Part shown: piece by piece, positions 7,028 to 40,719 of the stretch
How the letters are laid out: every line of letters starts with the position of its first letter
How positions within the stretch are numbered: the first letter of the stretch is position 1
Origin: Candidatus Thorarchaeota archaeon
Lineage (GTDB): Archaea; Asgardarchaeota; Thorarchaeia; Thorarchaeales; Thorarchaeaceae
Assembly: GCA_003345545.1 (NCBI GenBank)
Contig: PRDH01000030.1
Span: 1-40,719, forward strand
Direction of reading: 5' to 3'
Length of the DNA stretch: 40,719 nt
Notes under the pieces: generated by a model
What the model was told of the DNA's origin: nothing
What the model saw: the letters and a program-made list of their open reading frames with translations, nothing else
Databases searched by the model: none
Translations under genes and position numbers: made by a program

Positions 7028-9343
7028 TTGGGTTCGCCAAAGATACTCTTCGAAATAGAAGACGATGAGAGCACTAGTGCGATTGCAGTCGGCGATGTCA
7101 CCGGTTCCGGAACAATGGAGCTGTGTACTGGTGGACGTGACGGTGTCCTCCGGCTTTATAGTGCCAGTCATGCAGAGTTCTTGTTCCTTACTCAATACGA
7201 TGTTGGTGGCAGCATCCTTTCCATCGAGATTGCTGACGCCAACAACGACGGGCTGATGGAGATCATAGTTGGTCGTGCTATTGGCCCAAAGGAAACACCC
7301 GGTATTGCTGGTACAGTTCAAGTATTCAGGTATGCTCTCAAGGGTCAGTTCGAAATACTTGGCGAGTACGCCGTGGACAGATTCGTTACAACGGTCCGTG
7401 TGACTGACGTTACCGGCGACGAGAAGAATGAAATCATGGTCGGTGGCAGTGACTCTACATTGCGGATTCTCAATATGGACACTCAAAACAACATCACGCA
7501 GTTTTCTATGCACCGACTCCATGATATGCCCCTCGCTATCGGGATCTGCGATGTCGATGGTGATGAGATTGATGAGATTGTCACAGGCAACAGGGATAAC
7601 ACTCTGAGAGTCTTCAAAGTGCGGGACCATTCCTTGGACCAGATTGATGTTCTTGAGCTTCCCAGTCCGATTGTATCCTTGGCGTCTGGAGACATGCTTG
7701 GCGATCGCAAGATGGAGCTAGCTGTTGTCACACGTGATGGTTCAATCCGCGTATATCGCAATGAAGAGAGTAAACTCGATCTGTTCTCCAAACTGGAAAA
7801 CGTGAAGGCCATGTCTGTGAGGGTTCAAGAAATCAACGCAGACCACTTGGACGAGGTTATTGTGGCCACCCAAGATCATAAGGTACGATTCTACAGTCTT
7901 TACATGGCTGACCTGTTACTGCTTTCAGAGATTGACATCGGAAGCAAGATTCTTGCAATCAATGTCGGTGACGCGGGAGGCGACGGTCGGAAAGAGGTAC
8001 AGGTCGGTGTTTCCAATGGGCCTCTCAAGGTGATTGAGGGTCTCTACAAGATTATTCCTGTCTTTGAAGTCAATCCCGAGGCAAAGACTGGGACTGCTCT
8101 CCGAGGAAAGCTTACAGTCTATAACGTCAGTGATGAATCGGTGAATGGCATCGCTGGCAAGATCTATCACTTCCCGAAAGATGACATGGATGTTGAGCCA
8201 CAGCAGCTTCGATTTGACCTAGCTCCTGGAGAGAACAAGAGCATCGAGATTCAGCTCAATCCAAAGAAAGAGGGGACTATAATCATTCGTCCCATTGTAT
8301 TGATGTGGACCGACGTGTCTGGTCAGGTGAGGCAGGTCACCACACCAGAAACGGCTATTCTTGTCAAGATGGGCGCAGCTGTTGCAGCTCATGCAGCTAC
8401 GCCCCCGGTACCAATCGAGCCCACCGCCACTGTTTCCGCGAAAGAGACCCTAGTAGAAGAAGAGTCTCCCTTCGGGCCGGTCGTTGGTACAGGGTTCAAA
8501 GACCTTGCGCAGAAAGTGGCTGCCGCCAGGATTCTTGAGGAAACCATGCCAGAGGGCGGTGCCGACTCGCTCAAGGCTGCAGAGGAGCTCTTGGACCAAT
8601 TGTTCGGAGCAGATGAGTCCAGTAAGGCGATGACCGAGTTTGATGATGTGGAGAAGCTCATGACTGAGCCTGCTCCCGTTGTGACTCCAGCTATTGTTGA
8701 AACGACTGATACTGAGAGCGCCATCGTGACTGAGATTCGGAACAGACGACCCAAAGCTCCACGACCCGGTTCTGCTCCTGATTCATATCAGTACCTGTTC
8801 AAACTAATGGTCGTTGGAGAAGGTGCAGTTGGAAAGACAACCCTCGTCAATCGATATGTCACAGGTACCTTTGAGCGTGACTACAAGACCACTATCGGCT
8901 CCCAGTTCGCCGTGAAACTTACTCACATATCACCCCCTGATGCTGAGTACGCCACTGGTATCAAAATCCAAGCATGGGATGTTGCTGGACAGGCTCGATT
9001 CAAGGCTGTACGCAAAATGTACTATTCCGGAGCAGCTGGTGTCATCATTGTCTTCGATGTCACACGAAGACGTTCATTCACAGAGTTGTCTAAGTGGGTG
9101 CAAGAGGCAGATGAGTCCATTGGGGCTCGCGTACCCACGGTCTGTGTCGGTAACAAGACGGACCTACCTGATCGTGCAGTACCCTCTGACGAGGCCAAGC
9201 GTTGGGCGGAAGATCAGGGCTTCGTCTATATGGAGAGCTCTGCTAAGACGGGTGATGGTGTCGCAGACATGTTCACTGTCCTTGCTGAGATAATGTGGCG
9301 CGAGGCTCGAAAAGCCCAAGAGGGCAGGAAGACAGAAATCTAG
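7028..9343 (+). CDS. FG-GAP-like 7-blade beta-propeller + Ig-like domain + acidic/Pro-rich linker + Rab-like small GTPase fusion
   Basis: Seven repeats of hxxxDxxGDxxxEhxxGxxDxxhRhY/F. The C-terminal G domain has GEGAVGKT, YKTTIG, WDVAGQ, NKTD and SAK. Confidence 0.9.
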   Translation: MGSPKILFEIEDDESTSAIAVGDVTGSGTMELCTGGRDGVLRLYSASHAEFLFLTQYDVGGSILSIEIADANNDGLMEIIVGRAIGPKETPGIAGTVQVFRYALKGQFEILGEYAVDRFVTTVRVTDVTGDEKNEIMVGGSDSTLRILNMDTQNNITQFSMHRLHDMPLAIGICDVDGDEIDEIVTGNRDNTLRVFKVRDHSLDQIDVLELPSPIVSLASGDMLGDRKMELAVVTRDGSIRVYRNEESKLDLFSKLENVKAMSVRVQEINADHLDEVIVATQDHKVRFYSLYMADLLLLSEIDIGSKILAINVGDAGGDGRKEVQVGVSNGPLKVIEGLYKIIPVFEVNPEAKTGTALRGKLTVYNVSDESVNGIAGKIYHFPKDDMDVEPQQLRFDLAPGENKSIEIQLNPKKEGTIIIRPIVLMWTDVSGQVRQVTTPETAILVKMGAAVAAHAATPPVPIEPTATVSAKETLVEEESPFGPVVGTGFKDLAQKVAAARILEETMPEGGADSLKAAEELLDQLFGADESSKAMTEFDDVEKLMTEPAPVVTPAIVETTDTESAIVTEIRNRRPKAPRPGSAPDSYQYLFKLMVVGEGAVGKTTLVNRYVTGTFERDYKTTIGSQFAVKLTHISPPDAEYATGIKIQAWDVAGQARFKAVRKMYYSGAAGVIIVFDVTRRRSFTELSKWVQEADESIGARVPTVCVGNKTDLPDRAVPSDEAKRWAEDQGFVYMESSAKTGDGVADMFTVLAEIMWREARKAQEGRKTEI

Positions 9344-9437
9344 GTGCATGCCTAGAGTCTTCATGTGTCCTGGTGATGCGAATCAGTCCAGAGTCTTGTT
9401 ACGGACTGCTACTACTTCAAGATGTGAGTGGTGTAGC

Positions 9438-9884
9438 TTACTGCTGCTTTGTCTTCCAACAGGGTAGATTGAGTCTACTCTTTATCCATCGCTTTTCAGG
9501 GCTCTCTTCAGTTGACCTGCCAGGATTTGTGCAGTTACACCAGCTTGAACCACCGATAGTACGGACTGTCACGCAGTAGTAACAGTTTTGGCATCTCCGC
9601 ATAGGAAACAGTCTTTCAGACAATACAGGGGGTTCATATTTCTCCTTTTTCTTGATGGGTGTGCTCTTCTCTGCGTGTCTGTCGTTGCTGGAAGTTTCTG
9701 GCTCCTTCCTGTACTTGGCTAGTGTCTTCCTTGCATCTTTCTTGAGCATGGATGTCACATAATCCTCGTCAGTCACATCTGCTGATCGGGAACGATTGTC
9801 GGGTATGTCCAGGCTCACAAAATCATCGAGTAGTTCTGAAACTGTAACATCCTCAGCTGACTTGTCCTTCTTTTCTTTCCTCAT
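9438..9884 (-). CDS. Hypothetical protein with a charged N-terminus and a Cys-rich C-terminal domain
   Basis: CQNCYYC...WCNCTNP...PCW, a probable metal-binding module. Confidence 0.6.
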   Translation of the reverse strand: MRKEKKDKSAEDVTVSELLDDFVSLDIPDNRSRSADVTDEDYVTSMLKKDARKTLAKYRKEPETSSNDRHAEKSTPIKKKEKYEPPVLSERLFPMRRCQNCYYCVTVRTIGGSSWCNCTNPGRSTEESPEKRWIKSRLNLPCWKTKQQ

Positions 9885-36172: not shown

Positions 36173-37753
36173 ATGTTTGGCGCTATGGCTGACCATTATT
36201 CCCCACCTTCTAGGGATGAGCTGTATTTCACAAGTCATGTGCCCACTCAGATAATGACTGGATTTGCTATTCCTGGCCTGTTCTTCATGGCATTCCTGCT
36301 ATATGTGTCAGCACCAATGTTCTACTATGTTTTCCTGCTTCTCTATTTTCTATTCATACCTCTCCCATGGTACATATATTCCTATAGAAAAAGCAACACA
36401 CCCCTCTACGACACAGACATCCAGTCAATTGTTTCTGGTGCCGAATCGAAACTTGGCGTATCTAGAAGAATAAAGCTCTATCGCACTGAGAAGAAGTCCA
36501 ATCTTCTTACTAGTGCTCGAACTCCTTTTGTGTGTGGGATTCTGTTGTCTGACAGGGCTGTTGAACTGATCAAAGAACGACCAGGCGAAGGTGAAATAGT
36601 CTTAGCTCACGAACTTGCGCTTCTCAAACGTGATCATCTCTGGTTGGCTTCTGTCAGGAACCTTGCAGTGGTTTTCTATGCCATTCTAACTGAGGGATTG
36701 ATTCTTGTCATTGAACCTCTGCTCCCGTTATTGAGTCAACCTACACCGTGGATTTTCTTCTCGGTCTTATGCTATCCTTTTGGTGTCGGCATCTTCATCC
36801 GGTACTGCCGAAAATCTGCGGCAGAACTTGAAATTGAATTAGTCTATGGCATGAATCCTCAATTGGCTATGTTTCACGTCTTCTCAAGAAAAGGAATGAG
36901 CGATGCTGGAAGAAGATTCTACGTTGATGAAATCCGGTCTAGCATAGAGTCACGTAAATCGAGAACAGCCTTCGTTTCTCTTGGTGTTACCCTGATTGCC
37001 TCTCTCTGCGTATCAGCTCTGGTCTATCTCATTTTCATCACGATTCTGATGCCTCTCGAATTTGCGATATTAGCATCACTGCTACTTGGAGGTCTGTCCT
37101 TTTCCTTTGGTGTTTATCACTTTGAATCCAAGGGGACTAAAGGATTGAAGCGGCCAAACTATTCCGTGGCTGATTTGCCAAGGTCGACAGATGCTGTATC
37201 AGTTGAGGTCGAGAGGATCTTATCCATGAAAGTGAGTATCCCTGATTGTAGAGTTTTTCGTTACTCATTTGATGATTATTCAGTGGAAGATGAAGAATCT
37301 GGGTACATGGAAGCCCAAATTGGGGATGATAGAATACTGATAGAGCAAGAGGAATGGGATGGACTTCGTGAACCCGAGTTAATTGCATCATATCTAGTCG
37401 GAGGGTACACCGAGAGAAAAGCTGGAATCAGCTCAAATCTATACTCCTTTGTCCTCCTAGCCACCTTGGTATTACTTCTTTCAGGTACTGTCTATCTGGC
37501 ACTAGTACGTGTGCCACACTTTACGACATTTATCTTTTGGATATTGTTCTGCGGGGTTTCGGCTGCGTTGTTCCTGTTCGCCCTTAATACTAGGTCAACT
37601 CATAGGAGAACGATAGCTCTGAGAGGCCTCGCAAGACGAGATGAGAATTACAGAAGAGCGTTGGAGAAACTTGCTGAGAGTAAGAATATACCCAAGTATG
37701 TACAACGAAGCGCGAAACGGGCACTAGTCAGAATAACATCAGTACAAAGGTAG
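36173..37753 (+). CDS. Polytopic membrane protein, M48/HtpX-like fold with a degenerate zinc motif
   Basis: Multiple TM helices; ILLSDRAVEL...EIVLAHELALLK (HExxH changed to HELAL). Confidence 0.6.
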   Translation: MFGAMADHYSPPSRDELYFTSHVPTQIMTGFAIPGLFFMAFLLYVSAPMFYYVFLLLYFLFIPLPWYIYSYRKSNTPLYDTDIQSIVSGAESKLGVSRRIKLYRTEKKSNLLTSARTPFVCGILLSDRAVELIKERPGEGEIVLAHELALLKRDHLWLASVRNLAVVFYAILTEGLILVIEPLLPLLSQPTPWIFFSVLCYPFGVGIFIRYCRKSAAELEIELVYGMNPQLAMFHVFSRKGMSDAGRRFYVDEIRSSIESRKSRTAFVSLGVTLIASLCVSALVYLIFITILMPLEFAILASLLLGGLSFSFGVYHFESKGTKGLKRPNYSVADLPRSTDAVSVEVERILSMKVSIPDCRVFRYSFDDYSVEDEESGYMEAQIGDDRILIEQEEWDGLREPELIASYLVGGYTERKAGISSNLYSFVLLATLVLLLSGTVYLALVRVPHFTTFIFWILFCGVSAALFLFALNTRSTHRRTIALRGLARRDENYRRALEKLAESKNIPKYVQRSAKRALVRITSVQR

Positions 37754-37857
37754 TTGTGCTGGCCCGGTAAGGTCAAAATGACTAGTTGCGTCGCGAGCAT
37801 TGTATCGCATAAATTAATACGGCATGGCCGCTCACGTGTGCTTAGGAGTGGATACAC

Positions 37858-39132
37858 CTGGCTGGTCACAATATTCAGGCTCTTCTCATTAAGGAGCGCG
37901 GAGGAATGCCTCTGTTCTTCATGAAGTTGGACCCCAAAGCGCAGGACTTGGATCCCATGCTTGTTTCAGGATTCTTCACAGCAATCCAGAGTTTTTCCAA
38001 AGAAGTCATCGAACGCGACAGTTCCATGTTCCAGGTCGATTATGGCGCACGCCTTTTTACGGTGATATCAGGCGAGGTCACGGATTTCGTTATTGTCAGC
38101 CTTGGCGAGTGGGACGATGATGTGACTCCTATCTTGAAGTCCCTTCTTGAGGAGTTTGAGGGCATCTGGATTAAGGACCTCTCCAGAAAAGAAAAAGATG
38201 CCTTGAAAATCGATGTGGAGTTCCCTGATTTTCGGGAAGGAATTGTTCAGAATCTGTCCTTCAGAAAGTTGTCTGGGAGTTGGGTTCCATTCCTCGTCGA
38301 GTCTGATGGAAAAGGCAAAATCAAGTCGGATAGTGTAGTTCTGTCATACATCAATGGTCTCAGCACGGTTGACGATATCTCGATGAACAGCGGACTCGGA
38401 GCCGACGAGGTAGTGGCCGAGATTACGCGGCTCTGGGCTCTTGGGAAGGTGAGATTCGGCAGTATACTCAGTCGAGCTGATATTCTTGCATCGACGTCGA
38501 AGATTGATCGTCTGCTTCAACTCTCATCACCCCAAAGAGCAGAACTGTCGCGAAGGAATCCCGAGGTCATTGCTCTGCTGCCTCGCCTGTCAATGATGTT
38601 TGATGGGCGACGATCCGTGGGGGCAATAATCGATGGTCTTGCCAAAGAATACAAGGAGAACCAAGTAATGGAGGTCATAGATACACTACTCGAAACGGGT
38701 GCGATTGTTGCTCTGTCCCCGGAGAAGAGAAGGCTTCTTCTTGTGCAAGAGGCTCTTGAACTTGCAATTCGTGTTGCCGAGCGAATCTACACCCCCGTAG
38801 CTGCTAGGCAGTTCTTGAACATTGCTATGAACAAGGTTCCAGCTACTGAGGTTGCCGGAGTCTTCAGGATGACAGATACCTCATGGAGCATTGACTATAA
38901 CTCTCGACTGTATGAACACCTCGATCCGCGGAGGCTCATGAACCTCTATGCTGAATGGATGAAGCTTCTGGCGCAATACATAGGCGCCCTAGACAAGAAC
39001 AGGATATTGAAGTTTGCAGAGGCACTGACTGAGATCTATCGAAGCTATCTGTTCGAGCGCTATACTAGTAGTGACTTGCGTGGCTTTGAGGAGTTCACGT
39101 TTTGGCTTGAGATGAATTGCTTAGGAGTCTGA
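37858..39132 (+). CDS. NPRL2/Npr2-like protein (longin domain + winged-helix repeats)
   Basis: Longin helix DPMLVSGFFTAIQSFSKE; VPFL...VLSYINGLSTVDDIS...LWALGKVRFGSIL; second winged helix FDGRRSVGAI. Start extended from ATG 37906 to CTG 37858 (see findings). Confidence 0.7.
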   Translation: MAGHNIQALLIKERGGMPLFFMKLDPKAQDLDPMLVSGFFTAIQSFSKEVIERDSSMFQVDYGARLFTVISGEVTDFVIVSLGEWDDDVTPILKSLLEEFEGIWIKDLSRKEKDALKIDVEFPDFREGIVQNLSFRKLSGSWVPFLVESDGKGKIKSDSVVLSYINGLSTVDDISMNSGLGADEVVAEITRLWALGKVRFGSILSRADILASTSKIDRLLQLSSPQRAELSRRNPEVIALLPRLSMMFDGRRSVGAIIDGLAKEYKENQVMEVIDTLLETGAIVALSPEKRRLLLVQEALELAIRVAERIYTPVAARQFLNIAMNKVPATEVAGVFRMTDTSWSIDYNSRLYEHLDPRRLMNLYAEWMKLLAQYIGALDKNRILKFAEALTEIYRSYLFERYTSSDLRGFEEFTFWLEMNCLGV

Positions 39133-39148
39133 TTCAGAAGGAGGTATT

Positions 39149-39502
39149 GTGATGTCTGATATTGCACGACCAATTCACGAGGTTGCTGACATATTGAGCC
39201 GTCGGGGGCAGACAATCTATGGCAAAGGAAAGATGATCGAGTTATGTTCAGAGGCCGGGGTTTCTCTCATGGATGACATTGCTGCTGAGCTTGGAGAGTC
39301 GGACACGGAGGCCTCTCTCCTACGCTTTGTCGTCAGCTATGCAAAACTGAACCCCGCCGCAAAGCTCACTGTCCTGACGGTCTCGAAGCTTCATGACCTG
39401 TCCATACCGAAGGAGCTCCTCGAGAAGCGCAAAGTCTTCACGGATATTCTTGACTCATTGTCTGACTTTAGACACGATATGACTGAACGTCTTCGTGGCT
39501 GA
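39149..39502 (+). CDS. Small helical hypothetical protein, probably co-transcribed with the NPRL2-like gene
   Basis: Starts 16 nt after the upstream stop, with a strong AGGAGGT Shine-Dalgarno. Confidence 0.75.
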   Translation: MMSDIARPIHEVADILSRRGQTIYGKGKMIELCSEAGVSLMDDIAAELGESDTEASLLRFVVSYAKLNPAAKLTVLTVSKLHDLSIPKELLEKRKVFTDILDSLSDFRHDMTERLRG

Positions 39503-39578: not shown

Positions 39579-40719
39579 ATGCGATTTCAATGTGGCTGCT
39601 ACGGCATAGGCATTCAGCAGCGACTTGCTATCATGTCTGTTCTATTTCTGCTCTCGACTTCTCTCCATGCACCATCAGCGTCCTTTGCAGGAGCTTTTCA
39701 GGCGGTGGAAGTCCCATCACGTGACTATTGGCCTACAACTGGTTGGAGGAATTCAACCCCAGAAGAGCAAGAGATGAGTTCGGTTCGATTGCAGGAGATG
39801 GTTGACCATATCGTTGAAGTGGATTTGGATGTACATTCCGTGATTGTGATTCGCCACGGATATGTGGTTCTCGAGGAATATCCCAATCCATCTCAAGGTC
39901 AGAGTCGTACACAATCAGTCAGCGGCACGCACTACCTCTACTCTGCCACGAAAAGCTTCTCATCCTGCCTTATTGGAATGTCAATCTATCAAGGATTCAT
40001 TCACAACACAAGTCAGACAGTCTTGTCCTTCTTTCCTGATATGACCATTGCAAACGTGGATGAACGTAAGGAACGAATGACAGTATGGGACCTCCTAACA
40101 ATGAGAAGTGGTCTTCCTTGGGATGAGCTAAGCGCTCCCTTCTCCTCTCCTGATAACGACGTATGGCAGGTCAATAACAACGCAAGTGGAGGAGTTCAAT
40201 ATGTTCTTGACCAGGCCATGGAATATGATCCTGGAACGGTATTCCACTACAATACTGGTGCATCACACCTTCTCTCCGGGATTCTTCAGGAAACAACTGG
40301 CATGACAACACTTGAGTTTGCGACCGAATCCATATTCACGCCACTCAACATTTCGCCCGTCTATTGGCCGTCTGACAGAAAGGGTGTGAACTTTGGCGGC
40401 TATGACCTTCAAATGAGACCTTTGGACATGGCGAAGTTTGGTTACCTCTACCTCAATAATGGTACTTGGGAGAACACGCAACTCCTACCTGAGGAATGGG
40501 TCAGAAACACAACTACCACGGTCACAGTATTGTCCTCTACACATGGATATGCTGCGCAATGGCATACTATGCCCGATCTTGATGTCTATTACGCTGCAGG
40601 GTTGTATGGTCAATACATCTTTGTTTCGCCTGAGTACGATGTCGTGGCTGTTTTCACATCAGGCTATGGGCTCAACGATTTAGACGAAAATCCACAGATG
40701 TTTCGCGACTACATCATTG
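39579..40719 (+). CDS. Secreted serine hydrolase, beta-lactamase class C/AmpC-like family, runs off the right window edge
   Basis: Translated by hand: signal-like N-terminus, DYWPTTGW...TPEEQ, YSATKS (SxxK), LLTMRSGL, FHYNT, AAGLYGQ. Absent from the ORF track because it is truncated. Confidence 0.85.
   Translation, partial: MRFQCGCYGIGIQQRLAIMSVLFLLSTSLHAPSASFAGAFQAVEVPSRDYWPTTGWRNSTPEEQEMSSVRLQEMVDHIVEVDLDVHSVIVIRHGYVVLEEYPNPSQGQSRTQSVSGTHYLYSATKSFSSCLIGMSIYQGFIHNTSQTVLSFFPDMTIANVDERKERMTVWDLLTMRSGLPWDELSAPFSSPDNDVWQVNNNASGGVQYVLDQAMEYDPGTVFHYNTGASHLLSGILQETTGMTTLEFATESIFTPLNISPVYWPSDRKGVNFGGYDLQMRPLDMAKFGYLYLNNGTWENTQLLPEEWVRNTTTTVTVLSSTHGYAAQWHTMPDLDVYYAAGLYGQYIFVSPEYDVVAVFTSGYGLNDLDENPQMFRDYII

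What the first reader, a model, noticed from the sequence alone, without database searches (positions are those of the whole stretch)
37858..39502. NPRL2 (GATOR1)-like longin/winged-helix protein in an operon with an unknown small partner
Seen: an N-terminal longin domain followed by VPFL...VLSYINGLSTVDDISMNSGLGADEVVAEITRLWALGKVRFGSILSRADILASTSKIDRLL. From memory this closely tracks the segment after the longin domain of eukaryotic NPRL2 (VP...ILPYIDG...ISAEADV...LLYYG...SIL...TPKVQDLV). A second winged helix and a helical tail follow. Known: NPRL2 is the GAP subunit of GATOR1 acting on Rag GTPases, and Npr2-like proteins have been reported in Asgard archaea. Inference: the tightly linked 117-aa helical protein is a dedicated partner of a proto-GATOR-like regulator.
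Basis: partly seen in the sequence, partly recalled or inferred. Interest (0 to 1): 0.72.

Follow-up and report, generated by a model that had tools for sequence, protein, structure and literature searches.

The report
Archaeal NPRL2-like GTPase regulator operon
A Thorarchaeota (Asgard archaea) gene encodes a real relative of the eukaryotic nutrient-signalling protein NPRL2, and it sits in a conserved operon with a small helical partner and its own Rab-like GTPase, so a regulator and its likely client GTPase can be tested as a pair.

Summary
Window 37858-39132 encodes a 424-aa protein made of a longin domain, a linker strand, two winged helices and a ~135-aa helical tail. A 116/117-aa helical ORF follows 16 nt later.

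The NPRL2 likeness is statistical, not only remembered. A family profile hits human NPRL2 (E 4.6e-9; hhalign 93%). NPRL2 and Npr2 rank first and second of 48,161 PDB folds (Z 9.6 and 9.4). The similarity lies in the linker and the two winged helices. The longin domain is generic in fold and shows no sequence match to NPRL2's. No equivalent of NPRL2 Arg78 could be shown.

The partner reading is strongly supported. The small gene lies directly downstream in every informative clade-A locus and is fused in frame in a paralogous clade.

It follows in 46 of 52 loci. In this lineage it lies just past the contig end, behind an inserted beta-lactamase-fold gene.

The family was already reported computationally (Liu et al. 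2020/2021). I found no report of the partner, the fusion or the GTPase operon. The most likely function is a GAP, less likely a GEF, for the operon GTPase.

The parts
37814..37819 (+). TATA-like box (TTAATA) about 40 nt upstream of the start codon; probable promoter of the operon
   Evidence: The ATTAATACG / CTTAATAC motif is kept at the same distance from the start in most relatives (DNA alignment). The promoter role is an inference.
37845..37850 (+). Shine-Dalgarno-like GGAGTG, 7 nt before the CTG
   Evidence: Read directly from the sequence. Relatives have GAGG or GGAG at the same place.
37858..39132 (+). NPRL2-like protein, 424 aa, from a CTG start (408 aa if translation starts at ATG 37906)
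   Evidence: There are 148 homologues, nearly all from Thorarchaeota, and none has a Pfam annotation.
37858..38265 (+). Longin domain (residues 1-136). It carries a G-x-P turn before strand 2, a conserved LDPxAxDxDP loop, and a DYGxR turn with Arg65.
   Evidence: AF2 topology. VIA Z 10-12.5 to TRAPP, Sec22b, MglB and Ragulator longin/roadblock domains.
38266..38334 (+). Linker with the conserved W-V-P strand, aligned to the 'DVPVF' segment of NPRL2 (TINI-like)
   Evidence: HMMER and hhalign alignments.
38335..38718 (+). Two tandem winged helices (residues about 160-287), homologous to the NPRL2 C-terminal domain
   Evidence: by sequence; by structure on the paralogue. Both domains are acidic, pI about 5.
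38719..39129 (+). Helical tail of about 135 aa (residues 288-424), absent from NPRL2/3, with no recognisable relative
   Evidence: Only Z<6 helical noise.
39149..39502 (+). Small helical partner protein (117 aa from GTG, 116 aa from ATG 39152)
   Evidence: There are 51 homologues, all in Thorarchaeota, with adjacent locus tags. The gene is directly downstream in clade A and fused in clade B. In the fused paralogue it models as a confident four-helix unit.
39579..40718 (+). Beta-lactamase-fold gene with a hydrophobic N-terminus. It is a lineage-specific insertion between the partner and the operon GTPase, and it runs off the contig end.
   Evidence: Pfam PF00144, E 2e-25. It sits in this position only in L001, L002, L003, L005 and the near-identical contigs L074/L075. 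The contig ends at 40719.

Best explanation
This is the first gene of a three-component small-GTPase switch module of Thorarchaeota.

The components are:
- a regulator with NPRL2-type architecture (longin domain, linker strand, two winged helices) extended by a helical tail;
- a small four-helix protein that binds the regulator, probably on the tail; it is a separate gene here and a C-terminal domain in the paralogue;
- a dedicated Rab-like GTPase encoded at the end of the operon.

The most likely mechanism is as follows. The longin domain docks on the nucleotide-binding face of the operon GTPase and controls its GTP/GDP state, most probably as a GAP as in GATOR1, folliculin and C9orf72-SMCR8, and less probably as a GEF. 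The winged helices, tail and partner mediate assembly, possibly with the second paralogous module in the same genome, as NPRL2 pairs with NPRL3.

Shown here: homology of the winged-helix region to NPRL2; the conserved gene order; the partner fusion; the Rab-like nature of the GTPase.

Inferred: physical binding, the GAP activity, and the heterodimer.
For: NPRL2 homology:
- PDB profile search, E 4.6e-9.
- hhalign 93.2%.
- Foldseek top 13 hits and top 12 hits are all NPRL2/3 or Npr2/3.
- The exhaustive VIA scan ranks NPRL2 (Z 9.6) and Npr2 (Z 9.4) first and second of 48,161 chains.
- The ESM Atlas shape search returns NPR2/NPR3 clusters.

Partner:
- The small gene starts 2-44 nt after the regulator gene in every informative clade-A locus.
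- It is fused in frame in 24 clade-B loci and in the genome's own paralogue L054.
- In the fused model (pTM 0.83) the partner domain is confidently folded.

GTPase:
- A Ras/Rab-family gene (PF00071, E 1e-45; nearest PDB entry is 'Thorarchaeota Rab' 7EZB, then Ypt1/Rab1/Rab8) lies downstream on the same strand in 46 of 52 genome loci.
- In contigs with a 100% identical regulator it starts 40 nt after the inserted beta-lactamase-fold gene.
- The GTPases linked to clade A and clade B are 50-57% identical to each other, but at most 38% identical to any other GTPase in the genome. They share the WDLGSQ signature. The whole module was therefore duplicated as a unit.
- The GTPase keeps the catalytic Gln. 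It has Pro where MglA and Thor-Rab carry an intrinsic switch-I Arg (PMC10933270). This fits a need for an arginine supplied in trans.
- Arg65 of the regulator is conserved in 100% of clade A and 96% of clade B.

Expression: one 151-nt contig from an RNA library, 100% identical, bridges the regulator stop and the partner start. This is a weak hint only.
Against: - No sequence similarity between this longin domain and the NPRL2 longin domain (hhalign 1.6%).
- Structurally the longin domain matches TRAPP, Sec22, MglB and Ragulator as well as anything else.
- By strand topology Arg65 sits in the beta3-beta4 turn. From memory, NPRL2 Arg78 sits in the beta4-beta5 loop. A homologous arginine finger is therefore not shown.
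- Many longin/roadblock platforms are GEFs or scaffolds rather than GAPs.
- The GTPase is Rab-like, not Rag-like. It has no roadblock C-terminal domain, and its Gtr1_RagA score is below the Pfam cut-off.
- No DEPDC5/IML1 relative was found in a genome that is 93% complete.
- Pfam's own NPR2 model does not hit the protein.
- No complex model could be made with these tools.
- A sub-clade of fused paralogues (L033, L037, L049-L051) has no adjacent GTPase.
Confidence: 0.65

Rival explanations
1. The same module, but the regulator is a nucleotide-exchange factor (GEF) for the operon Rab-like GTPase, as the TRAPP, Mon1-Ccz1 and DENN longin platforms are for Rabs.
For: - The best single-domain structural matches of the longin domain are TRAPP subunits Bet5/Trs23/synbindin, Z 11-12.5.
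- The client is Rab-like.
- No arginine could be shown to be homologous to Arg78.
- Liu et al. proposed GEF activity for the analogous Asgard DENN/Rab-like operon.
Against: - The only specific homology is to NPRL2/3, which are subunits of a GAP complex.
- The GTPase lacks an intrinsic switch-I Arg, and the regulator keeps a near-invariant Arg65.
Confidence: 0.2
2. The regulator is an effector or scaffold downstream of the GTPase. The GTP-bound Rab-like protein recruits the longin/winged-helix protein and its partner, which pass the signal on, and neither hydrolysis nor exchange is altered.
For: - The extra helical tail and the partner have no known catalytic relatives.
- Operon linkage shows a functional link but not its direction.
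Against: - Known longin/roadblock-GTPase pairs encoded together (MglA/MglB, the Asgard DENN operon) are regulator-client pairs.
- The longin loops are the most conserved part of the protein.
Confidence: 0.1
3. It is a winged-helix transcription factor whose longin domain is a sensor. The NPRL2 likeness would then be only a shared tandem winged-helix arrangement.
For: - Weak profile hits to MarR and LexA (E 0.3-1.5).
- Single winged-helix structural matches to TFE, RPA32 and MecI, Z about 5.
Against: - Both winged helices are acidic, pI 5.0 and 5.25.
- NPRL2 and Npr2 are the only hits that cover both winged helices as one unit, and they stand above the rest.
- The sequence similarity to NPRL2 is significant; that to DNA-binding families is not.
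Confidence: 0.04

Closest known systems
NPRL2 / Npr2 (and NPRL3 / Npr3), subunits of GATOR1 / SEACIT, the GAP for RagA/Gtr1 (PDB 6CES, 7T3A-C, 8FW5, 8ADL)
   Same: - N-terminal longin domain, a linker strand and two tandem winged helices in the same order.
- Significant sequence-profile and structural similarity over the linker and both winged helices.
- Paralogues co-exist in one genome, as NPRL2 and NPRL3 do.
   Different: - The longin domain has no detectable sequence similarity to NPRL2's, and no Arg78 equivalent was shown.
- The turn before strand 2 is G-x-P rather than GP.
- An extra helical tail of about 135 aa and a dedicated four-helix partner are present.
- The linked GTPase is Rab-like, without a roadblock domain.
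- No DEPDC5 relative was found.
- The Pfam NPR2 model does not hit the protein.
'NPRL2-like proteins in Asgards' of Liu et al. 2020/2021 (bioRxiv 10.1101/2020.10.19.343400; Fig. 5c)
   Same: [quoted passage not shown] This is the same taxonomic range as the family found here.
   Different: The text I could read mentions neither the small partner, nor its fusion, nor an operon with a Rab-like GTPase for this family. I could not see the figure or the asCOG tables, so I did not verify that it is the same family.
Asgard operon of a LAMTOR1-like roadblock protein, a Rab-like GTPase and a DENN protein (Liu et al.), and bacterial MglA/MglB
   Same: A longin/roadblock-superfamily regulator is encoded next to its small GTPase, and the GTPase in the operon is not of the Rag family.
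   Different: The regulator architecture differs: NPRL2-type winged helices rather than DENN or a bare roadblock domain. The GTPase family also differs, with its WDLGSQ switch II.
Thor-Rab (PDB 7EZB/7EZD/7EZE; Tran et al. 2024, PMC10933270)
   Same: It is the closest solved relative of the operon GTPase (E 3.8e-36). Both are Rab-like and lack a C-terminal prenylation cysteine.
   Different: Thor-Rab has the canonical WDLAGQ motif and a switch-I Arg37. The operon GTPase has WDLGSQ and a Pro at that position.

Membership tests
NPRL2/NPRL3 (Pfam NPR2 PF06218 / NPR3 PF03666) | N-terminal longin domain | tested here: met
   The AF2 model has beta-beta-alpha-beta-beta-beta-alpha topology. VIA Z is 10-12.5 to longin/roadblock domains. 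This is a match at fold level only; hhalign against the NPRL2 longin domain gives 1.6%.
NPRL2/NPRL3 (Pfam NPR2 PF06218 / NPR3 PF03666) | Post-longin linker strand and tandem winged-helix C-terminal domain homologous to that of NPRL2 | tested here: met
   hmmsearch E 4.6e-9. hhalign 93.2%, E 2.9e-7, residues 138-288 against NPRL2 169-328. VIA Z 9.6 and 9.4, ranks 1 and 2 of 48,161 chains, measured on the paralogue.
NPRL2/NPRL3 (Pfam NPR2 PF06218 / NPR3 PF03666) | Scores above the curated Pfam NPR2 or NPR3 threshold | tested here: not met
   No NPR2 or NPR3 hit at E<=1 for the protein. No PF06218 hit anywhere in the genome.
NPRL2 (catalytic subunit of GATOR1) | Arginine finger equivalent to human Arg78 | tested here: inconclusive
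Arg65 is near-invariant but lies in a different turn. Arg19 follows the G-x-P motif in clade B only.
Longin GAP subunits (NPRL2, FLCN, SMCR8, C9orf72) | GP motif just before or at the start of strand 2 (PMC12290439) | tested here: inconclusive
   The family has a conserved G-x-P at that position (G16 conserved in at least 90% of both clades). It is not a contiguous GP, and from my own knowledge G-x-P is also common in ordinary roadblock domains.
GATOR1 complex | Heterodimer with a paralogue (NPRL3) and binding to DEPDC5/Iml1 | not testable with these tools
   Paralogues exist in the same genome (L054, and the tandem pair in L056). No IML1 family hit was found, but the controls did not ring either.
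GATOR1 complex | Client is a Rag/Gtr GTPase (G domain plus roadblock C-terminal domain) | tested here: not met
   The operon GTPase is 171-178 aa. It scores 149-154 bits on Pfam Ras but only 17.6-20 bits on Gtr1_RagA, below the cut-off of 22, and it has no C-terminal domain.
Rab-like small GTPases (for the operon GTPase) | G1-G5 motifs and closest similarity to Rab/Ypt | tested here: met
   GxxxxGKT, switch-I Thr, NKTD and ETSVK are present. Top PDB hits are Thor-Rab, Ypt1, Rab1 and Rab8. G3 is atypical: WDLGSQ, with Ser where Ras has Gly60.

The most novel reading that the evidence does not exclude
The operon is a self-contained ancestral form of the GATOR1-type longin GAP. It works on a Rab-like GTPase rather than a Rag GTPase. 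The two paralogous modules found in many Thorarchaeota (one split, one fused, each with its own WDLGSQ GTPase) pair up as NPRL2-NPRL3 do. If so, the NPRL2/3 architecture and its GTPase-regulating role arose before Rag specialisation and before DEPDC5 and TOR existed.
Probability: 0.3. Interest if true: 0.8.

Novelty: new variant of a known kind. Interest (0 to 1): 0.62.

Why it matters
Asgard archaea encode dozens of small GTPases and over a hundred longin/roadblock proteins. Which regulator acts on which GTPase is largely unknown. Tran et al. 2024 state that the genome layout of the cultured Lokiarchaeon gives little help, because GTPase genes are generally not in operons with roadblock or longin genes.

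Here conserved gene order and a gene fusion name a specific trio: an NPRL2-like regulator, a partner and a Rab-like GTPase. These proteins can be co-expressed and assayed directly. That would test whether the GATOR1-type longin/winged-helix architecture already controlled a GTPase in archaea, and whether it did so as a GAP or a GEF. It would also show what the atypical WDLGSQ switch II means for hydrolysis.

Tried and rejected
- Pfam and NCBIfam scans of both proteins found nothing useful. The only hits were WIYLD at E 0.1 and PqqD at E 0.006, both below threshold.
- A longin-only profile against the PDB gave only noise: apolipoprotein, TFIIH p62.
- Longin-only hhalign against the NPRL2 longin domain gave 1.6%. 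Arg78 equivalence therefore could not be established by sequence. Model coordinates are not exposed, so no superposition was possible.
- VIA-align on the full model was dominated by the longin domain and listed no NPRL2. This was resolved by modelling the paralogue without its longin domain.
- The search for related loci with the 49-sequence alignment failed because there was no conserved stretch. It was repeated with the 19-sequence alignment.
- I looked for the operon GTPase in the window's own assembly. The contig ends at 40719. A candidate fragment on contig C4 is a different, canonical WDLAGQ GTPase in another context. Near-identical public contigs were used instead.
- Distant family members (P0124, P0133, P0165; 21-38% identity) have no partner or GTPase neighbours. 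The operon is therefore confined to clades A and B.
- The ESM Atlas gave nothing informative for the partner.
- The upstream 526-aa membrane protein is not a conserved neighbour.
- RNA evidence amounts to two 151-nt contigs in one metatranscriptome. That is too little to claim co-transcription.
- The IML1/DEPDC5 family search found nothing, but it also rang in no control genome, so it does not show absence.
Full report
**What is in the sequence.** One frame is open from a TAG at 37843 to a stop at 39130-39132. The first canonical start is the ATG at 37906 (408 aa). Homologues carry about 16 more N-terminal residues (xxGHNIQALLI[M/K]ERGG), which form the first strand of the longin sheet.

A codon-level alignment with 20 relatives supports a start at CTG 37858:
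- These 16 codons keep their amino acids through many synonymous changes.
- The window's CTG at 37858 aligns with the relatives' TTG (most), GTG (L006) or ATG (L002) start.
- In L009, L012, L013 and L021, in-frame stops lie just upstream of that codon.
- A TTAATA box about 40 nt upstream and a GGAG about 10 nt upstream are conserved.

This agrees with an earlier scan note on the same codon. The second ORF (39149-39502, 117 aa; 116 aa from the ATG at 39152) starts 16 nt after the stop.

**Who has it.** The protein has 148 close homologues in a 5.8-billion-protein collection. They come almost entirely from Thorarchaeota MAGs, with a few labelled Loki/Promethearchaeota or Hermodarchaeota. All are 'hypothetical' and none has a Pfam domain. 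An exhaustive HMMER scan of 1.84 billion cluster representatives finds only 57 clusters, so the family is small and confined to Asgard archaea. In the window's class, 66 of 87 species genomes have a match at E<=1e-20, and in its genus 27 of 27 do.

**Is it NPRL2-like?** Pfam and NCBIfam models do not see the protein. The reverse search does:
- A 19-sequence profile hits human NPRL2 at E 2.9e-7.
- A 49-sequence profile hits human NPRL2 at E 4.6e-9 and yeast Npr2 at E 0.03. Nothing else is below E 0.29.
- hhalign against an alignment of 14 vertebrate NPRL2 proteins gives 93.2% probability and E 2.9e-7. It aligns residues 138-288 with NPRL2 169-328. The NPRL2 sequences were retrieved with a typed 78-residue N-terminal fragment that matched primate NPRL2 at 100%.
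- The aligned region is the W-V-P strand of the linker plus both winged helices.

The structural evidence agrees:
- The AF2 model is confident (pLDDT 86.8, pTM 0.76).
- Foldseek against the PDB puts 13 NPRL2, NPRL3, Npr2 or Npr3 chains on top (E 1e-6 to 9e-5). Generic longin/roadblock domains follow only at E about 3e-3.
- Rigid-body alignment of the whole model is dominated by the longin domain. I therefore modelled the genome's own paralogue without its longin domain (pLDDT 87.5, pTM 0.83).
- For that model, Foldseek's top 12 are again all NPRL2/3 or Npr2/3.
- An exhaustive VIA scan of 48,161 PDB representatives ranks human NPRL2 first (Z 9.6, 149 residues, rmsd 4.2 A, NPRL2 168-328) and yeast Npr2 second (Z 9.4). 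All later hits (Z<=7.6) cover only a single winged helix.
- The ESM Atlas shape search also returns eukaryotic NPR2/NPR3 clusters.

**Limits of the likeness.** The longin domain matches TRAPP Bet5/Trs23, Sec22b, MglB and Ragulator subunits at Z 10-12.5. It has no detectable sequence similarity to the NPRL2 longin domain (hhalign 1.6%; PDB profile search gives only noise). An equivalent of the NPRL2 arginine finger (Arg78) could therefore not be placed.

The candidates for a catalytic basic residue are these:
- The only near-invariant basic residue of the longin domain is Arg65, in a DYGxR turn (100% in clade A, 96% in clade B). By strand order it lies in the beta3-beta4 turn. From memory, Arg78 lies in the beta4-beta5 loop.
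- The turn before strand 2 carries a conserved G-x-P. This is the position of the 'GP motif' that marks GAP-type longins (PMC12290439). It is not a contiguous GP.
- In clade B an Arg follows the G-x-P directly (87%). In clade A that residue is Leu.

After the second winged helix the protein continues with a helical tail of about 135 aa. NPRL2/3 lack this tail, and it has no recognisable relative.

**The partner.** The 117-aa protein has 51 homologues, all from Thorarchaeota. Their NCBI locus tags are consecutive with those of the regulator, for example JW779_11685/11690 and E4H12_07110/07115.

Across 52 genome loci from different species the family splits cleanly in two:
- In clade A (at least 45% identical to the window protein) the partner is a separate gene starting 2-44 nt after the regulator's stop.
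- In clade B (37-42% identical) the same sequence is the in-frame C-terminal domain of a protein of about 530 aa.

The window's own genome has both forms. The fused paralogue is a 533-aa ORF on contig C15. In its model the partner part forms four confident helices after a disordered linker of about 14 residues. A gene fusion together with invariant adjacency is strong evidence that the two polypeptides work as one unit. The ESM Atlas and the structure searches gave no relative for the partner.

**The third gene.** Directly downstream of the fused paralogue lies a 171-aa small GTPase. Using it as a query shows a homologue downstream on the same strand in 46 of the 52 loci, in both clades. Usually it begins within about 100 nt.

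The six loci without it are:
- one locus cut by a contig end (L014);
- five from a sub-clade of fused paralogues (L033, L037, L049-L051).

In the window's closest relatives (L001, L002, L003, L005) a beta-lactamase-fold gene of about 1.3 kb is inserted between the partner and the GTPase. That is the ORF starting at 39579 in the window. The window's contig ends at 40719, inside this gene. Two public contigs whose regulator is 100% identical show the full order: mutase, membrane protein, regulator, partner, beta-lactamase-fold gene, then a 178-aa GTPase 40 nt later, followed by genes on the other strand.

The GTPase has these properties:
- It is Ras/Rab-family (PF00071, E 3e-45). Its Gtr1_RagA score is below the Pfam cut-off.
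- Its nearest solved relatives are the Thorarchaeota Rab 7EZB, Ypt1, Rab1 and Rab8.
- All operon GTPases share an unusual switch II, WDLGSQ, with Ser where Ras has Gly60 and the catalytic Gln retained.
- They also share NKTD and ETSVK, have no C-terminal Cys, and have a Pro just before the switch-I Thr, where MglA and Thor-Rab have an intrinsic Arg.
- The GTPases linked to clade A and clade B are 50-57% identical to each other, but at most 38% identical to the other Rab-like GTPases of the genome. The regulator, partner and GTPase were therefore duplicated together.

**Mechanism.** The shown facts are a regulator whose winged-helix region is homologous to NPRL2's, an obligate small partner, and a dedicated co-inherited Rab-like GTPase. 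They point to a GTPase switch module.

I favour GAP activity for three reasons. The only specific relatives are subunits of a longin GAP complex. The GTPase lacks an intrinsic arginine. The regulator keeps a near-invariant arginine. This remains an inference, and GEF activity (as in TRAPP, Mon1-Ccz1 and DENN for Rabs) is a serious rival. The winged helices are acidic (pI about 5), which argues against DNA binding and for the protein-protein role they have in NPRL2-NPRL3. The GTPase is basic (pI 9.4) and the longin domain acidic (pI 4.6). This is compatible with binding but proves nothing.

Whether the clade-A and clade-B proteins heterodimerise like NPRL2 and NPRL3 is open. The clades differ at Arg19/Leu19, Lys23/Gln23 and Arg126/Gly126. 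That is the kind of asymmetry a catalytic/non-catalytic pair would show.

One 151-nt contig from a wetland RNA library, 100% identical, spans the regulator stop and the partner start. This is a weak hint of co-transcription.

**What is known already.** Liu et al. [quoted passage not shown] The core identification is therefore not new. Their text reports a conserved roadblock/Rab-like/DENN operon, but no operon, partner or fusion for the NPRL2-like family. I could not see the figure or the tables.

Full-text searches found no other paper linking GATOR1/NPRL2 with archaeal longin proteins, apart from the 2025 Traffic paper on GP motifs. Tran et al. 2024 note that in the cultured Lokiarchaeon the GTPase genes are generally not in operons with roadblock or longin genes, which makes pairing hard. 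This operon is a counter-example. I rate it a new variant of a known kind. The literature search covers open-access text only.

**Verdict.** It is extended by the operon GTPase and the module duplication. The catalytic mechanism remains unproven.

Noticed in passing
L056:1435-2337 and L056:2337-3164 (own genome, contig C24, about 7808-9537): Two tandem, overlapping genes (300 and 275 aa) encode short proteins made of a longin domain plus two winged helices, from the same superfamily but without the helical tail or partner (hhalign against the family 97.6%, E 3e-12). Their size and architecture are closer to eukaryotic NPRL2/3, and a tandem pair suggests a heterodimer. This may be the family that Liu et al. 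described.
   Followed up: partly
L074:8971-9507; L054:533-1048 (-); all loci: The operon GTPases have WDLGSQ in place of the near-universal DxxGQ (Ser at Ras Gly60, Gly at Ala59). This is conserved in both clades; the one exception, L016, has WDLGGQ. The effect on hydrolysis and switch II dynamics is unknown.
   Followed up: partly
window 39579-40718: A beta-lactamase/PBP-fold gene with a hydrophobic N-terminus sits inside the operon in this lineage. In L008 and L009 it lies after the GTPase instead. It is a loosely associated neighbour of unknown relevance.
   Followed up: partly
window 36173-37753: A 526-aa multi-pass membrane protein with an HELAL...RDH stretch reminiscent of a degenerate M48-type motif. 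It has no family hit and is not conserved next to the operon outside the closest relatives.
   Followed up: no
L033, L037, L049, L050, L051: A sub-clade of fused paralogues (about 60% identical to the clade-B protein) has a more divergent C-terminal domain and no adjacent GTPase. It co-occurs with an ordinary clade-B module in the same genomes, for example L033 and L042 on CP070658.1.
   Followed up: no
model m28836dbdba07, ESM Atlas rows 6-7: Bacterial clusters carrying the PatA_N (PATAN) domain appear among the nearest shapes to the tandem winged-helix plus helical region (TM 0.33-0.38). This is a possible distant structural link. It was not tested.
   Followed up: no
window 8789-9289 (inside the ORF 7028-9343): A Rab-like G domain, 36% identical to the operon GTPase, is embedded in a 771-aa protein. 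An earlier scan note already covers it.
   Followed up: no
window 38851-39001 and 39082-39232: Two 151-nt contigs, 100% identical, from a wetland metatranscriptome run (X7). The second bridges the regulator stop and the partner start.
   Followed up: partly
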